Shown here: positions 36,105-50,243 of the stretch, piece by piece
How positions within the stretch are numbered: position 1 is the first letter of the stretch
Layout of the letters: each line of letters begins with the position of its first letter
DNA from: the human T2T-CHM13v2.0 reference genome, Homo sapiens
Reading direction: 5' to 3' (one strand)
Assembly: GCF_009914755.1 (NCBI RefSeq)
Contig: NC_060933.1
Length of the DNA: 64,000 nt
Position numbers and translations under genes: made by a program
Notes under the pieces: generated by a model
What the model was told of the DNA's origin: nothing
Databases searched by the model: none
The model's input: only the letters and a program-made list of their open reading frames with translations

Positions 36105-36164
36105 GCACCAAAAGTAAAAACAAAATCACACTTAACACTCATTTTAGGAGATAAAAGGTTTACT
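36105..36164 (-). terminator. Candidate distal poly(A) site: AGTAAA (36164-36159) plus GU/U-rich downstream element
   Basis: Minus strand reads AGTAAA-ccttttatctcctaaaat-GAGTGTTAAGTGTGATTTTGTTTTTACTTTTGGTG. Confidence 0.55.
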
Positions 36165-36760
36165 TAGAAATTGCAAACATTTAGCAAAGGTAAGACAAAT
36201 ACTATTTTCCATATTCTACAGAAATACAATACTTTATAGCTGGCTTGGTACATGGTCACATAAGAACAAATCTAATGGAAAAAGAATATTTCATTCTACT
36301 TTTCTGCCACTTATCACAGTGTAATAAGTGCCAGTAAGTCCTGGAAGACAGTTGCAGAGGAAGATTAGAATCCCAGGGCTGTTTGTTAATATACATGATT
36401 ATATTGTAAGAATAATATAAAAACAAAATAGGTAAGATATACAATTAACATGCAATTTAAGCTATATTATTTTGAAGAAACAGGACAGAATTTAGTGAAC
36501 GCAACTTAAAAATTTGTTAATGTAGTATAATCAGCATATCATGGTATTTTACATGGTATGGAATTATTCCTCCTTAATAATGCTTGGCAAATTGGAACAG
36601 GCTGATCCTACTTCTAGAACATATTAAAATGAAGATGAAGGAAAACAAGTGGATAATTCTATTAGATGCTTTTCTAAATATTCTGAATTTTTAAAGTACC
36701 ATAATTACAGGCCTACCTCACCATCTCCAAAGTTAAAGTCATATTTTATACTCTATGAAT

Positions 36761-37068
36761 CTGTACTGTCCAGTATAGTAGCCCTTAGCCATATGTGACT
36801 ACTGAGCACTTAAAATGTGGCCAGTCAGAATTGAGATGTGCTGTGAGTGCAAAATACACTCAAATCTAAGACTTAGTATGGAAGAAAAAGAAGATAAGGT
36901 GTTTCATTAATAATCTTTTATATTGATTACATGTTGAAATGATATTTTTAATATACTGGGTTACATAAACTGTTATTAAAATTAATTTTGCTTGTTTCTT
37001 TTTTAATATGGCTACTAGAAAATTAAAAATTATGTTGTGGTTCACATTATATTTCTGTTGAACAATGT
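36761..37068 (-). mobile_element. MER33 (hAT-Charlie) within the PTAR1 3' UTR region
   Basis: CTGTCCA.TA..GTAGCC.CTAGCCA..TGTG..TA.TGAGCACTT, ATTGATTACATGTTGAAATGAT and GGCTACTAGAAAATT motifs. Confidence 0.8.
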
Positions 37069-40000
37069 GGACATAGATAATCTACAGTCATTACATTAGC
37101 CTTAGAATTTAGCATCATACTTTTAAGCACTCTGGGGTACTAACTTGAACTCCCAGAAACCCATAAGCACACTCTGCATATAAATTATTGCAAAATTCAT
37201 TCTTATCTCTCTGAAAGATATGCATTTTAAGGGTAAAAAGAATTCACAAAATATTGAATCCTTAACAAATGTCAATTAGTATATGGAGAGAGCTAAAGGA
37301 CTTCAATGTAGACTGTTACATTGGGGAAAAACAGATCAAGAAACATAGCAGTACAACAGAGGGAAGACCATTAGTCTCTTCAGTAAAATAGTTAGCCAAA
37401 CTTATCTTTAATGGCCAATGCCTGACCCTGCACCATAGATTATATATGTAACTTTTCCATTTAAACATAAACTATAAGAAAATCTTAAAACAATATTGAC
37501 GGCAGCTTACTTATATCTTCAAGCAATGTAAAATTAACAGGCATGGTTAATTTTAATGGCAGAATATAGTAGCTGAGAACTTCTTTTAAATGAAAGCTCC
37601 TCCATGTTAAATTATGCAATTGACTAGTGTCCACAAAATTCGAGTCAAAAAAAAATTAGACGCTATTAAAATCATAACTGGCCTTTTTTTTTCTCCCTCT
37701 CCTTTTTTAATCTTTTGTAGTGTATAAATATTTGGCATACTTATAATACCTCATCTTTTATTTTTTCCAACTCAAAAACAGTAAGTTAATCTAAGAATGC
37801 ATTCCATTATTTTCCTAAAAACAACATATGCCAAAGTACAATACTGACAGTGGTCACCTCAGTCAGCAGCCAGCATCGAAGTCATGCATCAAGAACCTCG
37901 CCAGGAGGCAATGCCTAATTACATTTGTACTATACACTCTGTTCCTCACAGTTCAGGTAGGAATGTTTATTTGTGTTTTATAAAACTGTTTAATCTTTTT
38001 ACATTAGGTAAACTCTGTCAAAAATGCTTTGAAAACCACAAATTAACAGATGCTGAGACTACTGTATCATTCACAAAAAGTTCTTCCTCATGCCAAAGAT
38101 GTTCTGAGAAAACAAGCAGAAGTTTATTGTAACTTCACATTTTACCATTACCACTCTTAAGACGCTAGAAACAAGTAAGATTTAAGGAAAAATAAAAAGA
38201 ACCTAAACCCGATAGTACTGGATATACCAATACAGAGACTGATTGCAGAAGACTACAGCAGTTCTCTCTAGAGTTCAGCCAGCTGCTTATTAAGACATTT
38301 AATTACATTTATTAATATGCCTTGCACAAGAAAATACTACTTAATCTTTCACATCTCCTATCTTTCAACTATGTTCTGTATAAATAATACTTCTATTACG
38401 TTACTAACTCCAGCTTAAATAAGCCTCATAAATCATGTCAAATGATATAATTTCAAAATTCCACACATATATTACTCTACAAATATACTCCTTGGTGAAA
38501 AGATGTCAACAGTCTCCTTTCTGAAAGCTGTTAGTTTGATGTTAGATCAATCACTGACTAAGCATTTATTGAGCATCTACTATAACTGTACCCAGTCTTT
38601 AACTAATAAGAAAAAAATACCTGCTCCAAATGCAAGATGATATTTGTAAGGGAGGATAATTTATCAACTTTTTCTAATAGAATGCTCCTTGAATCAATAT
38701 CTGCCATATGAAATTATATGACAAGTAAACCTCAAATTTATTACCTATCACCTTATAATGATAAATAAGCAATCTAAAGTATGCTGCATAGTACCTTGAG
38801 GAAAGTGACTGCTATACTTAAAATTAAGGCTGATTCCTAAAAGGTATGGAAGAAAAGCCAGAATGTTATTGTTTGTAAACCACTAAAGACTTAATATGAA
38901 CAGTTTACATAACTATCTGGTTAATTTGGGCAAATGAGCACTTGTGTTTGGTTTCTAACTTTGCTGGAAGGTGTTGGTCTAATAAAGAAAACTGCTTTAA
39001 GTAGGAGCACTTTTAGCATACACAAAAATAAAAATCCTTTGTAAATTTCACTTGCAATGTTGTGCAACTGTATATCTTTGCCTTATGCATTTGAAACTGA
39101 TTATGTATTTTATGCAAAATGGTATATTTTTCCCAAAGCTAAGAATATGGACAATGATGATATGATAGCTAAGCTAGTTTTATCTTTCTAGCTTTTATCA
39201 ACTCTTGACTTGTTGAATTCCTACAATGTGCAAGGCAGTATGCAATGTGTTGAACATATATGAGGTCTACACATAAAACAAAGGGAAACTGAAGTCTTTG
39301 GAAGCAAAATAGTTGTCAATTTGAAAACCAACGGTAATCATTTTCCTCAACAGTATTTCTAAAAGTTGAGAATGATGTCAACTAAAACAAAATACAATCA
39401 TCCCCACCTCTACCAAAGATGGAACTATAACACAGAAATCATTTCCACAGAAGACACGAGAATGTTCATACTAGAGCCATAGGGACCAAAGCAGCAAGAT
39501 AAACAATGAGGCAGTCACAGAATATCTACTAGCTACTGTACTGGTAATAGTTTATAAAAAATACGATCTATACTAAAATTTAAGAGCTAATAATATATTT
39601 AGCATATTTTTGCCTTTTCTTTTTGCCACTGAATATAAAATTTGTCCTGAATTTACTAAATCTTCTACACCCTGAGGAATAACAACAGACTAATAAAAGT
39701 AACGTCAGGGTTAGCTTTCTGGACAATAGAATCATCCAGAAAGCACAAATTATATATAGCTAATATTCTTGGAAGCACAAGGTTTCATCAGCAGACTAAA
39801 CTACTGCCCTGTATTGTTCTTAGCAAAGAGTTTGGTTTTACAGTGTTAACATGGCCTGGTGAGAGTAGAGAAGTCAAAGTTGGGAGCCTGAGGTTTCCTC
39901 TCCCACCTGAGATCCACAACTGATTCATTGGTTTTCTGTCTTCACCATGAACATGGCATATTGCTGCCCTTTAGGAATATATTATTCAACAGTTCTCTGT

Positions 40001-43000
40001 AAAAGCACTTTGGAATCTTTAGCTATATATTTCTATGAAATTATATTTGCTATCTTGAAATATGGAATTCCTATCCCTCCCTTCTCCATATACAAACAGA
40101 TAAAATGATACATTTAAAATTTCATCTACGCATTTACTTCTTTTCCTCCAATACCTGAGAGAAAGCAAGTACTGTTTTCCCCCTTTCAACTATATTACAT
40201 TATGCCTGAATTTGAGAGGGAAGGAAGGTCCTAAAGTAAGGCAAAGGATTCATTTAGGACAACGTTCTGGCCTTTATTTTAGGGCAGAGTGCCACTGTTT
40301 CCCTTTGGACGCAGGTTTCAGGCTAATCTATTTGTGCACACACCATCCTCTAAATGGGATGCCTCCAACCCCCAAAACGTTAGTTGCCAGAAAGAAAGAA
40401 CTAAATCTTGGTAGGGTGCTTAAAATGATAACTAATGGAATAATCAAAGCATCCTGCCTGCTTATATCAGTCTCTCACTGAAGGATAAAATACCCTACGG
40501 GGCCATGCCTAGCGATGGGAATAAATAAAACAATGGGCCACAATCAACTGTTTGATAAAACTTCCATCCTGTTTTCTTAAACATTAAATATAATCTTGCT
40601 CCCAAAAAAGTAAGAAAGGCACTCGAATTAACACAGTCTCTACAGTTATTTTTTAAAAGACACTATGTGACAATAAGGAATTCTTAGGGTTGATTTTTCT
40701 TCATTAACTTCTCAGTGCCTCCACACATCTCTCCATTAAATGGGAGCTTATTACAGAGCATACCTAGGTATGGGGAGGCAGCAACACATAAAGTGCTAGG
40801 GTTTGCACAGTTCTATTTGAGAAATTTATTCAAGACAAAAGGTTCAGTTGTTATCAGGTTCAAATTTTCTAGCATACTTTAAATATCTGTAAGTTTTAAA
40901 ATATAATTTTCCAGTAGCAAAATAATAGTTAGCTTAAAACAGCTTTTTAGAAAAAAAAAAATCATGTTACTTCCCTTTACAACTAAATCTTTAGCATCTT
41001 CTATAACTCAGGGGAACTAAGGTAGGGATTATTAGATTGTTGTACAGTAGGTGGTATCTGCCATCTTGTGCTATGTAAGAGAAAATTATTAAACTGACAA
41101 TTTGTTTGCTTCAATACTAAAAATTCCTTTTACACACACATACATGTGTGTGTGGCCCAACAAGAATAAACTGGCATGACCTGAACATACCTAAGTGGCA
41201 TACGATCTACTATGTATTTGCTTTCCTGCAAACTACTGCATAAAAATCCAAAAACTTTTGTTTCCGTATCTTGTATCACATAAGCCCTTATTTAAAAATT
41301 TAAGTACTTTTAGAGATAACCTGTATATATTTAACCCTACTAATAATTAAGCCTTTAAGTGAGAACTGTACCATAGGAATAAGAAATATGACTGAAAGTC
41401 TGGGCCCAGAGTTTCTTAAGAGGTAATAAAATGCTAAAATCTACAGAAGACAAAGGGGACATTAATACATATCAAATCCCTAAGCTTAAAAAATGACTCA
41501 TACAGATTTAAGAAATATCTGAAAGAGTCACAGTTCAAGTTGCGGGGAAAAAAGGAGAAGCATAAAATGATATGTGCACAGGTACAGATCAGTAAGTCAC
41601 TGAAATCAAAGAATTTCTTCAGATGATTAAAAGCAGTTTCGGCTCTGTATGCAGGATCTGTCCTCTAGTATCACAAATGAACAGAAAGTGGTGTTCTTAA
41701 TGCAAGTGGGTTCTTTAGCTCTACAAATTTTTAATATATATTATAATACAGTTAATTGACAATTACAGAGCTGCATTTCTTGGCTGGGATTTAACAAGTT
41801 TAAACAAGGTAATGAAATGAAGAAAAAAAAAGTCTAAATCAACTTACTCTATATGCAATAGCTCTTCCCAAGTATTACGAAACTAGAAAGCATCATTCAT
41901 TCCCAATCCATTGCACTAATCCATCAATTTCTCAATCATCACTCATTCTTAACACTCACAATCTTTCTCTTCCTGTTAGTCATTCATTAATTTAATAAAT
42001 ATTTAATGAGTCCTCACAATGTGCAGGGCACAAGTAGAATCTGGAAAACACCGTACTGCCAAAATAGGTACACTAAAGTACACTAAGGTACACTAAAGGC
42101 GGGGTGAAGGTGGTGTTGGAGACAGTTACAGAGCTTAATGCTTTTTGCTTGTCAGTAGTATTCTTAATCCACAGTAGGATGACCCACTGTTCTTCCAGTG
42201 AAAGTTTAATGAAATATGTGTCAATAAGCCATCTTTTCCTTTTAACAATTAGATTGTTATAGAAAAATAAGTGAAGACTAAAAGTCCCAGAAAACAGACA
42301 CATCCTTTCTACTACATAAGCTCAGTCAAAGACATTATCATGCTACAGCTAGCGGGTTTAAATATTAACCACTTAGGAAAAAAACCAACCATATAGGGCA
42401 ATATTAGGATTTTCTGTGAATGAACAATTAAAAAATGCAAACTCTAGAAATAAAGCAGCACACAAAAGTTACATACTAACAGTATCCTTTGGGTATTTGC
42501 ATTTTTGCTCTCTACTTTAAACTTTTAGGAAGGAAACAAGACATATTAAAGGACTGTGCGGCTTCAGAAAAGAGTGGGTTAAGAGCCTTAGAAGATATGA
42601 AAATAGTTTACACACCAAAGATAGGCAAGATAATCAGTGGAAGGTACACAAAGGCATGGAGCACTATAAAACTTAGCTAGTGTTTTATAGGGTATTGTCT
42701 ACACTCATTTCCTGACATTTTTTCACATCAAAGCATAAGCCCTATTACTCAAAATGTGAAAAATGATTTTTAGGAAAAAAGGTAATACTGAGTTAGGCCA
42801 GAATCTGGCAACATATTTTAGTGGAATGGGCTGAACCACCCATGTCTTCTCTGTGTAGTTTGCCCCCAAACACTCACAGGAGCTAAAAATCATAAACTTA
42901 TGATTTTATCCATAGAGGTCTAGGTGGACCTTGAGGTATTTAATTCAAAATATGCTTTGTACACAAAGGGCCATGGAATTATGTTCATAATGGTATTTTT

Positions 43001-44335
43001 TCATCTAAATAATATAAAAGCTATAAAAAGGTAATTTTTTACTTGAGAGAAGAACAAATTCTGTCTACTGGGGCCAGGCTAGACAACTTTTCTGGCGTTC
43101 TTAAGTCTCAACTCACTTCAACAGTCTGCCACTCAACAAAACCATGATGCCAAAGAAAAGGACATATTTCTTCTTCTTTAAGGCAGTCTACCTAACTCAA
43201 GTCCAGGCTTTCCGTAACAGTGAGAGAGAGGTTTACTTTCCCTACATCTTTATCCCCACTTTACAAATTACCTAGCAAGTAAAAAGAACAACAGGCAAAG
43301 CATTGTTGTCACACTTATTTCTGCCACTATTACTCACATTCTGCACAGATAGGACAACTGACAGCTTCCATCATTAGGGAAACTTTTAGAAGGGCCACTC
43401 TTCATATTTCTGGTATATGAATGTATTTTAGATGAGGTATGAAATTCATTGCAAATAGGGGGTAGAAATCTTGAAGACACACCCCTGAAGTAAGAAAGGA
43501 AAGATATACAAAAATGACACACAAAAGTGACAAAAAATACGTAATGGATTGGCAAAACAAAGTATATGAAAAGAAGAAACAGACCACTTACAAAAGGGCA
43601 AATATAAGAAAGCAGACATTACATGGCCCATTCCCCACCCTCATCCCACCTACCTGAAAAACTCAGCCCTTGTTATTGGAAACATAAGATACGGCTATAA
43701 TGTGGATACTTTGGTACCTCATCCCTGATTAAGTTCAGTATCAAAGTGTTTTGTTTTGCACATACTATTCCTTCCCTTGGCATTTGCCAGTAAACTTTAA
43801 CAGTCACTTCATGATAATTTTATAGTTTCCATAGTGTATCCTCAATAATTTAGATTTTTAAAAAGGAATATTTTTATGGATCTATTTCTTTATATATTTC
43901 TCCCATTTGTCATAAGTGAATTTGAAATTAAAAAGTAGTAATAGCTAAAAATGGCATTCCAGGTTTTCAGGAAAAAAAAATCAATTTTATAAGGACTGAT
44001 GTGTTTTGGCATATACCAAATTTGAGGTAAAAATAATCTATCAAAACTAGCAATAAAAATAATTTTCCTTTACTGCAATTACATAAACTCTTAAGTTAGT
44101 TTTTTCTTAAATAACCATTTAAAAAATGGATTACATTGGAAGCATTTTTTTCATATAAATTCCAATACTTCTGACTTTGGTAATTGGGTAGAACATGCTA
44201 GAGAAAGAGAACTAGTTTACATTTTTAAACATTCGCCCATCTAGCCATTTGATTCTCAAAACAATTACATCAAGTTATTCGGCATTCATACCAACATTCT
44301 TCAGTTGAACTGCAACATAAATGTTTATTTTCAAT

Positions 44336-44585
44336 TTGTTTTAGAGACAGGGTCTCAACTCTATTGCCCAGGCTGAGTACAGTGGTGCAATCATGGCTCA
44401 CTACAGCCACAAACACCTGGGGCTCAAGCAATCCTTCTGCCTCAGCTTCCTGCATAGCTAGGAACACAGTTGCATAGCACCATGCCTAGCTATTTTGTTT
44501 TACTTTTTGTAGAAATCGGGTCTTGCTATGTGGCCCAGGTTGGTCTCAAAGTCCTGGGCTCAGGCAATCCTCCTGCCTAGGCCTT
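44336..44585 (-). mobile_element. 5'-truncated AluJ, sense in the PTAR1 3' UTR
   Basis: GAGACAGGGTCTC...GGCTCAAGCAATCC J-type. Confidence 0.88.
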
Positions 44586-44955
44586 AAATTTTTAATTTTT
44601 AAAAGAATTTGCCTATGCAGCAATTGGACTGAGGGGGGTAGAGGTGTGTGTGTGTGAACCAATCAGGAAAACCAAATGAGAAGCCCCACATATAGAAATA
44701 CAAAGGGTGAGAAGTTAAACAGAAAATTTAAGACTCGCTGTTCAGCAGGAAGGAACTATACGATTATTTTATCCCCACAGGAATGCCAGTTATTAACAAA
44801 ATAAATAAAATGAAAGATTTACTATGGACTTTCAACCTAAAGACGAAGAACATATGGTTAGCCAATAATAGTAAACAGTTCATGCAACTATGTAAATAAT
44901 AAAAGAAAGCAATATTGCACTAAAAGGGGAACCTTGTAGGACTAATTCACCTCTT

Positions 44956-45182
44956 TCATTGACTCAAAGTAACCAGCCATTTCCTGTATGCACTGGCAAA
45001 CCTGGCTTGCTCCACGTTCCGACAGGTGGACAATACTTGATCAATGAACCTGTGCTCCATTTCTAGGCCTAGGGAGTCTGGAACTGGCGTCCGCTTCAGG
45101 CGTTTGGTTTCCTGGGAATAGCCTTGCTTGCTAGAGTCATTCAGTCCATCTACTTCCATTGCTTGAGACAGCTGGGAGCCTG
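44956..45182 (-). CDS. PTAR1: PTAR1 last coding exon: (A)GSQLSQAMEVDG...RFASAYRKWLVTLSQ*; TGA at 44958-44956
   Basis: Lies within ORF 44956..45246(-). Acceptor cttatccCAG|CAG. C-terminus matches PTAR1 as I remember it. Confidence 0.93.
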
Positions 45183-45263
45183 CTGGGATAAGGTGCAAGT
45201 CACTCAAAGTCCCCCCAGGGCTGTCTGCAGGTGACAACTGGGTCATGCTGTGAGGAAACCTAC
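45183..45263 (-). other. PTAR1: 81 nt GT-AG intron that is in frame and stop-free (exitron/retainable intron; +27 aa if retained)
   Basis: GTAGGT...CCCAG, length 81. Read-through gives GRFPHSMTQLSPADSPGGTLSDLHLIP. Confidence 0.8.
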
Positions 45264-45298
45264 CATTTAAGTGATGCTGAAGGTAGAAAATATGCCGC
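45264..45298 (-). CDS. PTAR1: PTAR1 35 nt coding exon (probably exon 7): (R)RHIFYLQHHLN
   Basis: Acceptor cttcccctctctatcgCAG|G, donor AATG|GTAGGT. Phase 2 start matches the previous exon and phase 1 end matches the last exon. Confidence 0.9.
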
Positions 45299-46244
45299 CT
45301 GCGATAGAGAGGGGAAGGAAGAGAATAAAGAAAATCACATTACAAAGTCAAGCTTTTCCAGAAAAAAAAGTTTGCAATTTCAAAACATACAGTATTCAAT
45401 TCACTGCCCATTTCATAACCAAGTTATACAGAGGAAGGAGGAAAAACAGTAGAGATGATGTTCCAGGATATTTGGACAAAGAAAGCCTTATAACTCCAGC
45501 TTACAGGTTTGTTTGTGAGAAAGAATACAGTCCTAAGGTTTTTCATAAGCATTTACTGAGATGACAATGACTTGGAGATGGTACTCTATGGTAACCGTAA
45601 TATAAAACTAGAAATATGTGACAGTCTTATTTCTGCTATAAGTTATAAATATAAAACAAAACCAAGACAAATCTCATTGATATCCTAGAAGACAAGTGAT
45701 TCAGAAATAAGGGGAATGAACAGTTCCTTTAGAGGCTTAATCTGTGGCCTCTATCAAGTACTTTAATAAAAATAACATATCTGTTGTAGTGGGTCTTATT
45801 CCCTAAAAGTCAACTGAACTTTACCCTAAATCCATCACCAACTACAGTTTTAAACATCCACATGCATTGGGGATGTGCTGGGCTCTGAGCAAAACATGTA
45901 AAAGATACAGTTCCTGTTCTCCCTCCGAGGAGAGCAATTCTCCTGCCCTTACAACCACCTACAATTGTTTGTTAAAAATGAAGATTCCCGCGTCTAATCT
46001 CCAAAAATTTCAATTCAGTGGGGGCACATCCATGTACAATGAACTGTATAACTTCTAGGTTGTTACATCTCATCATTCACATTAGCAACTCTAAGCCCTT
46101 AAGAGAATTCTATTCATTTTCCTTGCATATTCTGAAGCAGACAGGGAGCACATAATGTTCCACTTTTACAGGGGGTAAAACTTAAAGGCTAGATAAGCTG
46201 CCTAATGACAATGAGTCAGCAGTAGAAAACCGGCCTATGTAATA

Positions 46245-49938: not shown

Positions 49939-50243
49939 CTATGACACCAAAGGGTTTCATGTCCTGGGTAGGAATCAATAAGATCAGTGCTGAATTCAAC
50001 TTCTTCTTCTAGAAGATGGGGAAGATTAATCCTTGGTTCTTCTGTTGAAACTGCTGCTTCTTCATCTTTTGGAGGAACTAGGGCTGGCTCACTTCTCAAA
50101 GGATTTTGCTCCATCACAGAACTGTCTATCACAGTTTGGCTAATCAAAGACTTAAGCAAAAACTGGCGGTAGTGAAATCCACTGTGGTCTGAAACGTGCA
50201 TAGATGCCCAATGTTTAGTAGAAGATAGTTCATCAAGAAGAAT
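49939..50243 (-). CDS. PTAR1: PTAR1 coding exon (probably exon 6), 305 nt: ILLDELSSTKHWASMHVSDHSGFHYRQFLL...YPGHETLWCH(R)
   Basis: Overlaps ORF 49935..50201(-). Pyrimidine tract plus AAAAG|ATT acceptor, donor AG|GTAAGA. Repeat motifs SDHSGFHYR and PGHETLWCHR. Confidence 0.96.

What the first reader, a model, noticed from the sequence alone, without database searches (positions are those of the whole stretch)
45183..45263. Exitron-like last intron of PTAR1: 81 nt, in frame, no stop
Seen: the GT-AG intron between the 35 nt exon and the last exon is 27 codons long and open. Retention inserts GRFPHSMTQLSPADSPGGTLSDLHLIP (Ser/Pro-rich, two SP motifs) with no frameshift or NMD trigger. It is GC-richer than the other introns and looks exonic. 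Known: PTAR1 pairs with RABGGTB as GGTase-III, acting on YKT6 and FBXL2. Inference: this is coding sequence that can be spliced out, toggling a probably disordered, phosphorylatable loop after the last PFTA repeat. My unverified recollection is that some non-human orthologues are longer at this position.
Basis: partly seen in the sequence, partly recalled or inferred. Interest (0 to 1): 0.7.

Follow-up and report, generated by a model that had tools for sequence, protein, structure and literature searches.

The report
Alternatively retained coding intron in PTAR1
The 81-base last intron of human PTAR1 is genuine coding sequence that cells either keep or splice out, giving a longer or shorter enzyme subunit, but this switch is already annotated and published, and what it changes in the protein's work is unknown.

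Summary
Window 45183-45263 (minus strand) is an 81-nt GT..AG intron. It is open only in the coding frame, and its GC is 55.6% against 35-39% in the other PTAR1 introns. The interpretation, coding sequence that can be spliced out, also holds, but it is not new.

- **Annotation:** the hub's RefSeq table lists an exon 36142-45298 that retains the intron.
- **Structures:** PDB chain 6J6X_A carries all 27 residues, and 6O60_A is the spliced form.
- **Expression:** Horiuchi et al. 2021 (PMC8605363) list exactly this 81-nt event, HsaINT0133795. Retention is 62-74% in control HUVEC and 9-13% after WTAP knockdown, validated by RT-PCR.
- **Orthologues:** 80 of 120 listed PTAR1 orthologues carry the segment, from placentals to birds and crocodilians, 78 of them at exactly the human spacing. 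All 36 spliced-type models are placental. The long form therefore looks ancestral and the splicing derived, which is exitron-type.
- **Protein context:** the segment lies in an unmodelled linker after residue 327, outside the part that suffices for Ykt6 complexes.

Phosphorylation and any functional difference between the isoforms remain untested. Interest is low to moderate.

The parts
45264..45298 (-). 35-nt penultimate coding exon. It encodes ...RHIFYLQHHLN, and its last base G is the first base of the split codon.
   Evidence: hub annotation. Residue N327 is also the last residue of the crystallised 1-327 constructs 6J74/6J7F/6J7X.
45183..45263 (-). 81-nt alternatively retained coding intron (exitron type). 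It encodes GRFPHSMTQLSPADSPGGTLSDLHLIP when retained.
   Evidence: GT..AG ends, open only in the coding frame, GC 0.556; listed as event HsaINT0133795, 81 nt, 61.7/73.86% retention in control HUVEC; present in PDB chain 6J6X_A.
45258..45266 (-). Donor site ATG|GTAGGT. The GT occupies codon positions 2-3 of Gly328.
   Evidence: Sauropsid orthologues have Asn at this residue. Asn codons are AAT/AAC, so they cannot supply GT at that position (inference from the genetic code).
45180..45185 (-). Tandem acceptor CAG|CAG (NAGNAG). The first AG gives N-A-G-S (402 aa) and the second gives N-G-S (401 aa).
   Evidence: the hub table lists last-exon ends at 45182 and 45179. Among the 120 listed homologues, 26 are of the N|AG.. 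type and 10 of the N|GS.. type.
45135..45245 (-). Cluster of six DRACH (m6A-consensus) motifs, all of GAC type. The central A lies at 45243, 45224, 45210 and 45200 in the intron, and at 45145 and 45137 just downstream.
   Evidence: 4 motifs in 81 nt (49 per kb, against 15-29 per kb in other PTAR1 exons, introns and the 3'UTR). Mononucleotide shuffles give a mean of 1.10, with 0.011 of 5,000 reaching 4 or more. Whether these sites are methylated was not tested.
44956..45182 (-). Coding part of the last exon. It holds the rest of the linker, the KRLKR motif and two conserved C-terminal helices, and ends in the stop codon TGA at 44958-44956.
   Evidence: Mean pairwise identity is 0.805 in 18 amniote long forms. 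Helices 393-407 and 411-428 have block-mean pLDDT of about 78-86. 6O60_A aligns out to its residue 400.

Best explanation
The 81 nt are an alternatively retained, protein-coding terminal intron: an exitron of the length-divisible-by-three kind.

**Outcomes.** If the intron is left in, the 35-nt exon, the 81 nt and the 9-kb last exon form one terminal exon, and the mRNA encodes a 429-residue PTAR1. If it is spliced at GT / CAG|CAG, the product is 402 or 401 residues. No outcome creates a premature stop.

**Evolution.** The long form is the older state. The segment is coding, at a fixed length, across amniotes. Birds, turtles and crocodilians cannot have the donor GT at this position. Splicing is a derived option, seen here only in models from placental mammals (inferred from protein models, not from DNA).

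**Regulation.** The choice is regulated. The intron is short and GC-rich with a weak pyrimidine tract, and in HUVEC the WTAP-VIRMA-ZC3H13-CBLL1 module keeps it mostly unspliced (shown in print). I infer, without a test, that the dense DRACH cluster over and just after the intron is where that module acts.

**Protein.** The 27 residues lengthen a flexible linker. This linker joins the catalytic alpha-subunit core (residues 1-327) to a conserved C-terminal helical pair. Splicing shortens a tether and removes a weakly conserved L-[ST]-P-x-D-S patch. It does not touch the catalytic fold. What difference that makes in cells is unknown.
For: **Sequence.** GT..AG ends, 81 nt, open only in the coding frame, GC 0.556 against 0.35-0.39 in the other introns. 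The pyrimidine fraction upstream of the acceptor is 0.6 against 0.7-0.9.

**RNA** (PMC8605363, passages and supplementary table 3).
- Event HsaINT0133795 is 81 nt, flanked by a 35-nt exon and a 9,047-nt last exon.
- Retention is 61.7/73.86% in control HUVEC.
- After knockdown it is 12.76/8.83 (WTAP; 17.19 with a second siRNA), 42.7/38.57 (VIRMA), 32.19/17.96 (ZC3H13) and 36.97/26.36 (CBLL1).
- The text says RT-PCR validated the change.
- The abstract describes the regulated class as short, GC-rich introns with weak pyrimidine tract and branch point, often in the last exon.

**Protein.**
- 6J6X_A (366 aa) matches the retained reading 50 of 50 residues. 6O60_A is the spliced form.
- The 6J74/6J7F/6J7X chains stop at N327. 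The review PMC9141697 (passages) describes these complexes as binding Ykt6 and as a state in which the geranylgeranyl group has been transferred.

**Evolution.**
- Of the 120 listed homologues (187 found), 80 carry the segment and 36 are spliced-type, all placental.
- In 18 amniote long forms the segment has 0 gaps, against gaps in 13 of 18 for the other floppy loop. Identity is 0.478 against 0.915 and 0.805 in the flanks. D341 is present in 18 of 18.
- Unnamed, more distant representatives (46-60% identical overall) also have a coding linker there, of variable length.

**Structure.**
- Residues 330-391 have pLDDT below 50.
- Modelled residues number 278 for the 1-366 construct against 276-282 for the 1-327 constructs. 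6O60_A aligns through residue 400.
Against: - In the same RNA-seq table, METTL3 and METTL14 knockdowns left retention unchanged (61.39 and 62.18, one replicate each), although the text reports a reduction by RT-PCR. A role for m6A itself, and so for the DRACH cluster, is therefore doubtful. The DRACH excess also rests on one small count (4 motifs).
- The paper's own G-quadruplex idea finds no support here: 0 regex hits in 45083-45398.
- The evolutionary reading uses predicted protein models, which are in frame by construction. The list was ranked by similarity to a query that contains the segment, and 67 of the 187 hits were not shown. No orthologous DNA was available, so substitution pattern, GT/AG conservation and intron presence outside humans were not examined.
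- Retention was measured in one cell type only.
- No peptide or phosphosite evidence was found for the segment in vivo.
- The AlphaFold2 model is weak overall (mean pLDDT 61.5, 24 close sequences).
Confidence: 0.85

Rival explanations
1. The switch matters at the RNA level only. Keeping or removing the intron changes exon-junction and methylation marks, 3'-end processing or mRNA output. The 27-residue difference in a floppy linker is functionally neutral.
For: - The segment is poorly conserved in sequence (0.478 identity).
- It lies outside the 1-327 part used for the Ykt6 complexes.
- Both isoforms form crystallisable GGTase-III.
- PTAR1 TPM rises from 11.65/12.07 to 19.83/21.52 on WTAP knockdown, together with the splicing shift.
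- Horiuchi et al. propose competition between last-exon definition/polyadenylation and splicing.
Against: - The segment keeps exactly the human spacing in 78 of the 80 long forms, and has no gap in 18 of 18 aligned amniotes, while another loop of the same protein varies in length.
- D341 is invariant in that panel.
- A neutral linker would be expected to drift in length, as it does in more distant representatives.
Confidence: 0.3
2. It is an ordinary constitutive intron whose open frame is chance. The retained transcripts are unprocessed pre-mRNA or annotation noise.
For: An in-frame, stop-free 81-mer is not rare by chance, at roughly 0.06-0.12. The RefSeq Select transcript is the spliced one (hub table).
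Against: - Retention is 62-74% in oligo-dT-primed HUVEC RNA and drops to about 10% on WTAP knockdown.
- GC is 17-21 points above the other introns.
- The segment is coding in 80 of 120 listed orthologue models, including sauropsids that cannot have the donor GT.
- A laboratory cloned and crystallised the retained form.
Confidence: 0.03
3. It is plain exon, and the 'splice' is a rare cryptic event or a reverse-transcription template-switching artefact.
For: A paper found only in a search listing (PMC8240250, abstract) warns that some reported exitrons are such artefacts.
Against: - The junction has canonical GT-AG ends and no direct repeat: the longest shared word between the two junctions is 4 nt and out of register.
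- The spliced form is the RefSeq Select transcript and was cloned for 6O60.
- Splicing reaches about 90% after WTAP knockdown.
- 36 spliced-type models from many placental species are listed.
Confidence: 0.02

Closest known systems
Exitrons (Marquez et al. 2015, PMC4484396; abstract and passages read)
   Same: - It lies inside a stretch annotated as a protein-coding exon in one transcript, with canonical splice sites.
- It has no stop codon when retained and its length is a multiple of three, so splicing gives an internally deleted protein.
- It encodes a disordered region.
- Its GC is higher than that of ordinary introns.
- The orthologous sequence is coding in other species.
   Different: - The reference transcript treats it as an intron, so exon-based exitron scans may or may not list it. 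Their supplementary lists could not be read.
- Its GC is above, not below, that of the neighbouring exons.
- No paper in the searched library holds both 'PTAR1' and 'exitron'.
WTAP-complex-dependent last-exon intron retention (Horiuchi et al. 2021, PMC8605363)
   Same: It is one of their validated cases. It is short, GC-rich, has a weak pyrimidine tract and sits in the last exon, and retention is lowered by knockdown of WTAP, VIRMA, ZC3H13 and CBLL1.
   Different: - No G-quadruplex-type motif lies near its splice sites by simple pattern search.
- METTL3 and METTL14 knockdown had no effect in the RNA-seq table.
- Unlike their MSL1 and WTAP cases, no alternative polyadenylation is involved as far as I can see.
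NAGNAG tandem acceptors
   Same: The acceptor is CAG|CAG and yields products differing by one residue, Ala355 present or absent. Both are annotated (hub table).
   Different: Here the tandem acceptor belongs to an intron that is itself optional, so the locus has three in-frame outcomes (429, 402 and 401 residues).
Exitron-type removal of disordered regions, e.g. TARDBP (bioRxiv 10.64898/2026.10.06.756961; search listing and abstract only)
   Same: A splice donor embedded in sequence coding for a disordered region lets splicing delete that region.
   Different: The PTAR1 segment is short (27 residues) and internal. No aggregation or interaction role is known for it.

Membership tests
Exitron (Marquez et al. 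2015) | Lies within sequence annotated as a protein-coding exon in at least one transcript, flanked by coding sequence on both sides | tested here: met
   The hub's RefSeq table lists exon 36142-45298. The read-through frame is open to the normal stop. PDB 6J6X_A carries the residues.
Exitron (Marquez et al. 2015) | Canonical splice sites and real splicing | tested here: met
   GT..AG ends. The spliced form is 6O60_A. Splicing was quantified, with 26-38% spliced in control HUVEC and about 90% after WTAP knockdown.
Exitron (Marquez et al. 2015) | Retention introduces no stop codon; for the x3 subclass the length is divisible by three | tested here: met
   81 nt = 27 codons, with 0 internal stops in the 113-residue read-through.
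Exitron (Marquez et al. 2015) | Orthologous sequence is coding in other species (origin from an ancestral coding exon) | tested here: met
   80 of 120 listed homologues carry the segment, including marsupials, a monotreme, birds, turtles and crocodilians. This was tested on protein models only, with no orthologous DNA.
Exitron (Marquez et al. 2015) | Both isoforms translated in vivo | not tested
   No proteomic data could be reached. The search 'PTAR1' + 'phosphoproteom' gave 3 irrelevant papers.
Classical detained/NMD-type intron retention | The retained intron brings a premature stop or frameshift | tested here: not met
   The frame stays open and in register. It is the last intron, so neither form places a junction downstream of the stop.
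WTAP-complex-regulated last-exon intron retention (Horiuchi et al. 2021) | Retention falls on knockdown of WTAP, VIRMA, ZC3H13 and CBLL1 | tested here: met
   Their supplementary table 3 and text, read here. This is not an independent test of mine.
WTAP-complex-regulated last-exon intron retention (Horiuchi et al. 2021) | Potential G-quadruplex at the splice sites | tested here: inconclusive
   0 matches to four-G-run patterns (runs of 2 or 3, loops up to 12) in 45083-45398.
m6A-dependent splicing event | Methylated DRACH sites at the event and dependence on METTL3/METTL14 | tested here: inconclusive
   The motif is enriched, with 4 in 81 nt and a shuffle fraction of 0.011. METTL3/14 knockdown left retention at 61-62% in RNA-seq, although RT-PCR is reported to show a reduction. 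No methylation map was seen.
NAGNAG tandem acceptor | Two AG acceptors 3 nt apart, both used | tested here: met
   CAGCAG lies at 45185-45180. Both exon ends are in the hub table. 26 and 10 homologue models show the two junction types.

The most novel reading that the evidence does not exclude
The 27 residues may be a regulatory module of GGTase-III rather than spacer. They would form an ancestral, length-locked patch (core L-[ST]-P-x-D-S, with D341 invariant in the panel) on the tether between the catalytic core and the C-terminal helices.

Placental mammals would then have gained the ability to delete this patch by WTAP-controlled splicing. Cells could so tune localisation, turnover or substrate choice (YKT6 versus FBXL2) of the enzyme.

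It is curious that the YKT6 laboratory crystallised the long form while the FBXL2 laboratory used the short form.

Mouse may lack the switch. Mus proteins read I-P-T-S at the acceptor, and Thr codons cannot supply the AG at either human acceptor position. If so, mouse would hide any isoform-specific biology.
Probability: 0.1. Interest if true: 0.6.

Novelty: already known. Interest (0 to 1): 0.27.

Why it matters
PTAR1 is the alpha subunit of GGTase-III, the enzyme that adds the second prenyl group to the SNARE YKT6 and prenylates FBXL2. Most work treats it as one protein.

In the one cell type measured, the 'non-reference' 429-residue form was the majority, and the two structural studies used different isoforms. 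Anyone doing rescue, antibody, qPCR or proteomic work on PTAR1 should therefore know which form they have.

Beyond that practical point, this is a clean, conserved example of a coding intron under control of the m6A-writer scaffold. It opens no new question by itself.

Tried and rejected
- **RNA structure masking the splice sites.** Folding 45153-45298 gave -36 kcal/mol against a shuffle mean of -40.5, z = +1.10, and 180 of 200 shuffles folded at least as well. Rejected.
- **G-quadruplex near the splice sites.** 0 pattern hits.
- **Template-switching artefact.** No junction repeat; the longest shared word is 4 nt.
- **Exitron catalogues.** The supplementary files of Marquez 2015 could not be read, so I cannot say whether PTAR1 is in their list of 923 human exitrons.
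- **Primary structure papers.** Shirakawa 2020 and Kuchay 2019 are not held. What I say about the constructs comes from PDB chain sequences and a review.
- **Literature searches.**
  - 'PTAR1' + 'exitron': 0 papers.
  - 'HsaINT0133795': 0.
  - 'PTAR1' + 'intron retention': 3, of which 1 relevant.
  - 'PTAR1' + 'm6A': 4, with no additional relevant paper.
  - 'PTAR1' + 'splicing': 38 held, 30 listed. I opened two beyond Horiuchi (PMC7494975 and PMC9636002) and neither concerns this intron.
  - 'PTAR1' + 'phosphoproteom': 3, none relevant.
- **Pfam.** On the 113-residue read-through it found nothing. On the full long form it found only the PPTA repeats.
- **Orthologous DNA.** None of the collections holds eukaryotic genomes, so no codon-level test was possible.

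Full report
**1. The observation**

PTAR1 runs on the minus strand.
- The 35-nt exon (45298-45264) ends in ...TTAAATG.
- The next 81 bases (45263-45183) begin GTAGGT and end TCCCAG.
- The last exon begins at 45182.
- Reading straight through from 45297 to the TGA at 44958-44956 gives 113 residues without a stop. The 27 residues GRFPHSMTQLSPADSPGGTLSDLHLIP are inserted before Ala-Gly-Ser-Gln.
- The other two frames of the 81 nt hold two stops each.
- GC is 0.556. The other three introns in the window have 0.352, 0.348 and 0.387, the coding exons 0.40-0.51, and the 3'UTR 0.338.
- The acceptor is a tandem CAG|CAG, which explains the hub table's alternative exon end at 45179.

From sequence alone the open frame is not remarkable. 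0.37 of same-composition shuffles stay open, and 0.19 of 84-nt windows in the neighbouring intron are open in a given frame. Multiplied by 1/3 for length, that is about 0.06-0.12. The weight comes from what follows.

**2. Both RNA forms exist and the ratio is regulated; this is in print**

Horiuchi et al., J Biol Chem 2021 (PMC8605363), knocked down components of the WTAP complex in HUVEC. I read passages of the main text and rows of supplementary table 3.
- Their table lists PTAR1 event HsaINT0133795: an 81-nt intron between a 35-nt exon and a 9,047-nt last exon. These are the same lengths as here, apart from a 6-nt difference in the 9-kb exon between assemblies.
- Percent intron retention was 61.7 and 73.86 in the controls.

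| Knockdown | Retention (%) |
|---|---|
| WTAP | 12.76, 8.83 (17.19 with a second siRNA) |
| VIRMA | 42.7, 38.57 |
| ZC3H13 | 32.19, 17.96 |
| CBLL1 | 36.97, 26.36 |
| BCLAF1/THRAP3 | 50.59 |
| RBM15/15B | 54.62 |
| METTL3 | 61.39 |
| METTL14 | 62.18 |

- The text states that the PTAR1 event was validated by RT-PCR on oligo-dT cDNA and was reduced by all these knockdowns, METTL3 and METTL14 included.
- The RNA-seq and RT-PCR accounts therefore disagree for the two catalytic subunits.
- PTAR1 TPM rose from about 12 to about 20 on WTAP knockdown.
- The authors characterise the regulated class as short, GC-rich introns with weak pyrimidine tract and branch point, often inside the last exon. This intron fits: its pyrimidine fraction upstream of the acceptor is 0.6, against 0.7-0.9 for its neighbours.

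**3. Both protein forms have been made**

The PDB holds three distinct PTAR1 chain sequences.
- **6O60_A** (407 residues) is the spliced 402-residue form plus five extra residues.
- **6J6X_A** (366 residues) is residues 1-366 of the retained form. It matches the window's read-through at 50 of 50 positions.
- **6J74_A, 6J7F_A and 6J7X_A** (327 residues) stop at Asn327, the last residue encoded before the 81 nt.

A review (PMC9141697, passages) says the C-terminus was truncated to aid crystallisation. It also says the Ykt6 complex represents a state in which the geranylgeranyl group has been transferred.

Everything after residue 327, the segment included, is therefore dispensable for pairing with RabGGTB and for binding Ykt6 in the crystal.

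The window's 305-nt exon encodes the same residues as these chains at the positions where macaque differs, so the chains carry the human sequence.

**4. Where the segment sits**

- AlphaFold2 on the macaque 429-residue form (98% identical to human in the C-terminal 113 residues; 24-sequence alignment) ends the last core helix at 329. It gives pLDDT below 50 and no secondary structure for 330-391, and predicts two helices at 393-407 and 411-428 with block-mean pLDDT of about 78-86.
- The model is weak overall (mean 61.5). It also scores the N-terminal domain low, although that domain is ordered in crystals, so low pLDDT alone is soft evidence.
- Firmer evidence comes from the number of modelled residues: 278 for the 1-366 construct against 276-282 for the 1-327 constructs. 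The last aligned residue of 6J6X_A is 327. The 39 extra residues, including the whole segment, evidently were not modelled.
- 6O60_A has 300 modelled residues and aligns through its residue 400 to model residue 427, so the C-terminal helices are ordered in the full-length short form.
- FTase and RabGGTase alpha chains also align out to model residue 429. This suggests the helices continue the helical crescent, though at the modest Z values typical of repeat proteins.

The segment is thus part of a long flexible tether between the core and a conserved C-terminal helical pair. Splicing shortens the stretch between N327 and the first C-terminal helix from 65 to 38 residues (arithmetic).

**5. Evolution, from protein models only**

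A search with the 113-residue read-through found 187 homologues, of which 120 were listed. I classified them by the spacing between the FYLQHHL and QAMEVDG anchors.

| Class | Count | Notes |
|---|---|---|
| Carry the segment | 80 | 78 at exactly the human spacing, plus 2 recognised by eye where an anchor differed |
| Spliced N\|AG.. type | 26 | 25 by pattern plus 1 by eye |
| Spliced N\|GS.. type | 10 | 9 by pattern plus 1 by eye |
| In-frame 4-residue deletion | 1 | |
| Odd model (Prolemur) | 1 | |
| Lack the upstream anchor | 2 | |

- The long form occurs in placentals, marsupials, a monotreme, birds, turtles and crocodilians.
- All 36 spliced-type models are from placentals: primates, a colugo, rodents, carnivores, a porpoise and a golden mole.
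- In a panel of 18 amniote long forms the segment has no gap in any sequence, while the other low-confidence loop (residues 255-283) has gaps in 13 of 18.
- Mean pairwise identity is 0.478 in the segment, against 0.915 in the 27 residues before it, 0.805 in the 75 after it, and 0.509 in the other loop.
- D341 is invariant in that panel and L337 is present in 16 of 18.
- Unnamed representatives at 46-60% overall identity also have coding residues between the last core helix and the AMEVDG-like motif, but of variable length and sequence.

Two deductions follow from the genetic code.
- Sauropsids have Asn where human has Gly328. Asn codons (AAT/AAC) cannot supply the donor GT at codon positions 2-3.
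- Mus species read I-P-T-S at the acceptor. A Thr codon starts with A, so neither human AG position can exist there.

I therefore infer that the long form is ancestral, that splicing arose within mammals, and that mouse may have lost the in-frame acceptor.

Caveats:
- Predicted proteins are in frame by construction.
- The list was ranked by similarity to a long-form query.
- 67 hits were not shown.
- No orthologous DNA could be examined.

**6. How the choice might be made**

- The 81 nt hold four DRACH motifs, all GAC-type (A at 45243, 45224, 45210 and 45200). That is 49 per kb, against 15-29 per kb in the other PTAR1 exons, introns and the 3'UTR. Shuffles give a mean of 1.10, and 0.011 of 5,000 reach four.
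- Two more DRACH motifs follow within 46 nt of the acceptor (45145, 45137).
- Given the WTAP dependence, this is a natural candidate binding or methylation platform. It remains an inference, and the flat METTL3/14 RNA-seq values speak against a simple m6A mechanism.
- Local RNA structure is unremarkable (z = +1.10).
- No G-quadruplex pattern lies within about 100 nt of either splice site.

**7. Comparison with the known**

The event meets every exitron criterion I could test:
- It is annotated as exon in one transcript.
- It has canonical splice sites.
- It adds no stop codon and has a length divisible by three.
- The orthologous sequence is coding in other species.
- The encoded region is disordered.
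- Its GC is above intron level.

Translation of both forms in vivo was not tested.

It is also, by the authors' own data, a member of the WTAP-regulated last-exon retention class, and it has a NAGNAG acceptor. No paper in the searched library holds both 'PTAR1' and 'exitron'. The exitron catalogue of Marquez et al. could not be read, so the label itself may or may not be new.

**8. Verdict**

- the event is annotated in RefSeq;
- it is catalogued as a VAST-TOOLS event;
- it is published as a regulated retention;
- both isoforms are present in the PDB.

- the phylogenetic polarity (long form ancestral, splicing seen only in placental models, possibly lost in Mus);
- the length-locked character of the segment;
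- the DRACH cluster;
- the observation that the two structural laboratories used different isoforms.

Whether the 27 residues do anything is open.

Noticed in passing
window 45180-45185 (- strand): Tandem CAG|CAG acceptor. The locus has three in-frame outcomes (429, 402 and 401 residues). 10 of the 120 listed homologue models use the second AG.
   Followed up: partly
window 45135-45245 (- strand): Six GAC-type DRACH motifs lie within about 110 nt, spanning the intron and the start of the last exon. This is the densest stretch measured in the gene (49 per kb inside the intron). Methylation status is unknown.
   Followed up: partly
PDB chains 6J74_A, 6J7F_A, 6J7X_A versus window 45264: The crystallisation constructs used for the Ykt6 complexes end at Asn327, exactly the exon-intron boundary. 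The common part of all isoforms is therefore what was shown to bind Ykt6.
   Followed up: yes
Mus proteins P0053, P0054, P0057, P0060, P0061, P0069 (residues aligned to human 353-356): Mus species read I-P-T-S where human reads I-P-A-G. Thr codons cannot supply either acceptor AG, so mouse may be unable to make the short isoforms in frame. This is a deduction from protein sequence only.
   Followed up: partly
outside the window (about window coordinate 77395; hg38 chr9:69750781-69750950): The same supplementary table lists a second regulated PTAR1 event: a 170-nt cassette exon, HsaEX0050712. Its inclusion is 60/87.76% in controls and 92.59/100% after CBLL1 knockdown.
   Followed up: no
window 45278-45298 and 45094-45113: The published PTAR1 'DOWN' qPCR primer pair of PMC9636002 sits in the 35-nt exon and the last exon and spans the 81-nt intron. 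By my count it should give 205-nt and 124/121-nt products from the isoforms.
   Followed up: partly
PTAR1 residues 255-283 (encoded in window exon 49939-50243): A second low-confidence loop varies in length among amniotes, with gaps in 13 of 18 sequences, a 5-residue deletion in murid rodents and 4 extra residues in sauropsids. The length-locked 27-residue segment contrasts with it.
   Followed up: partly
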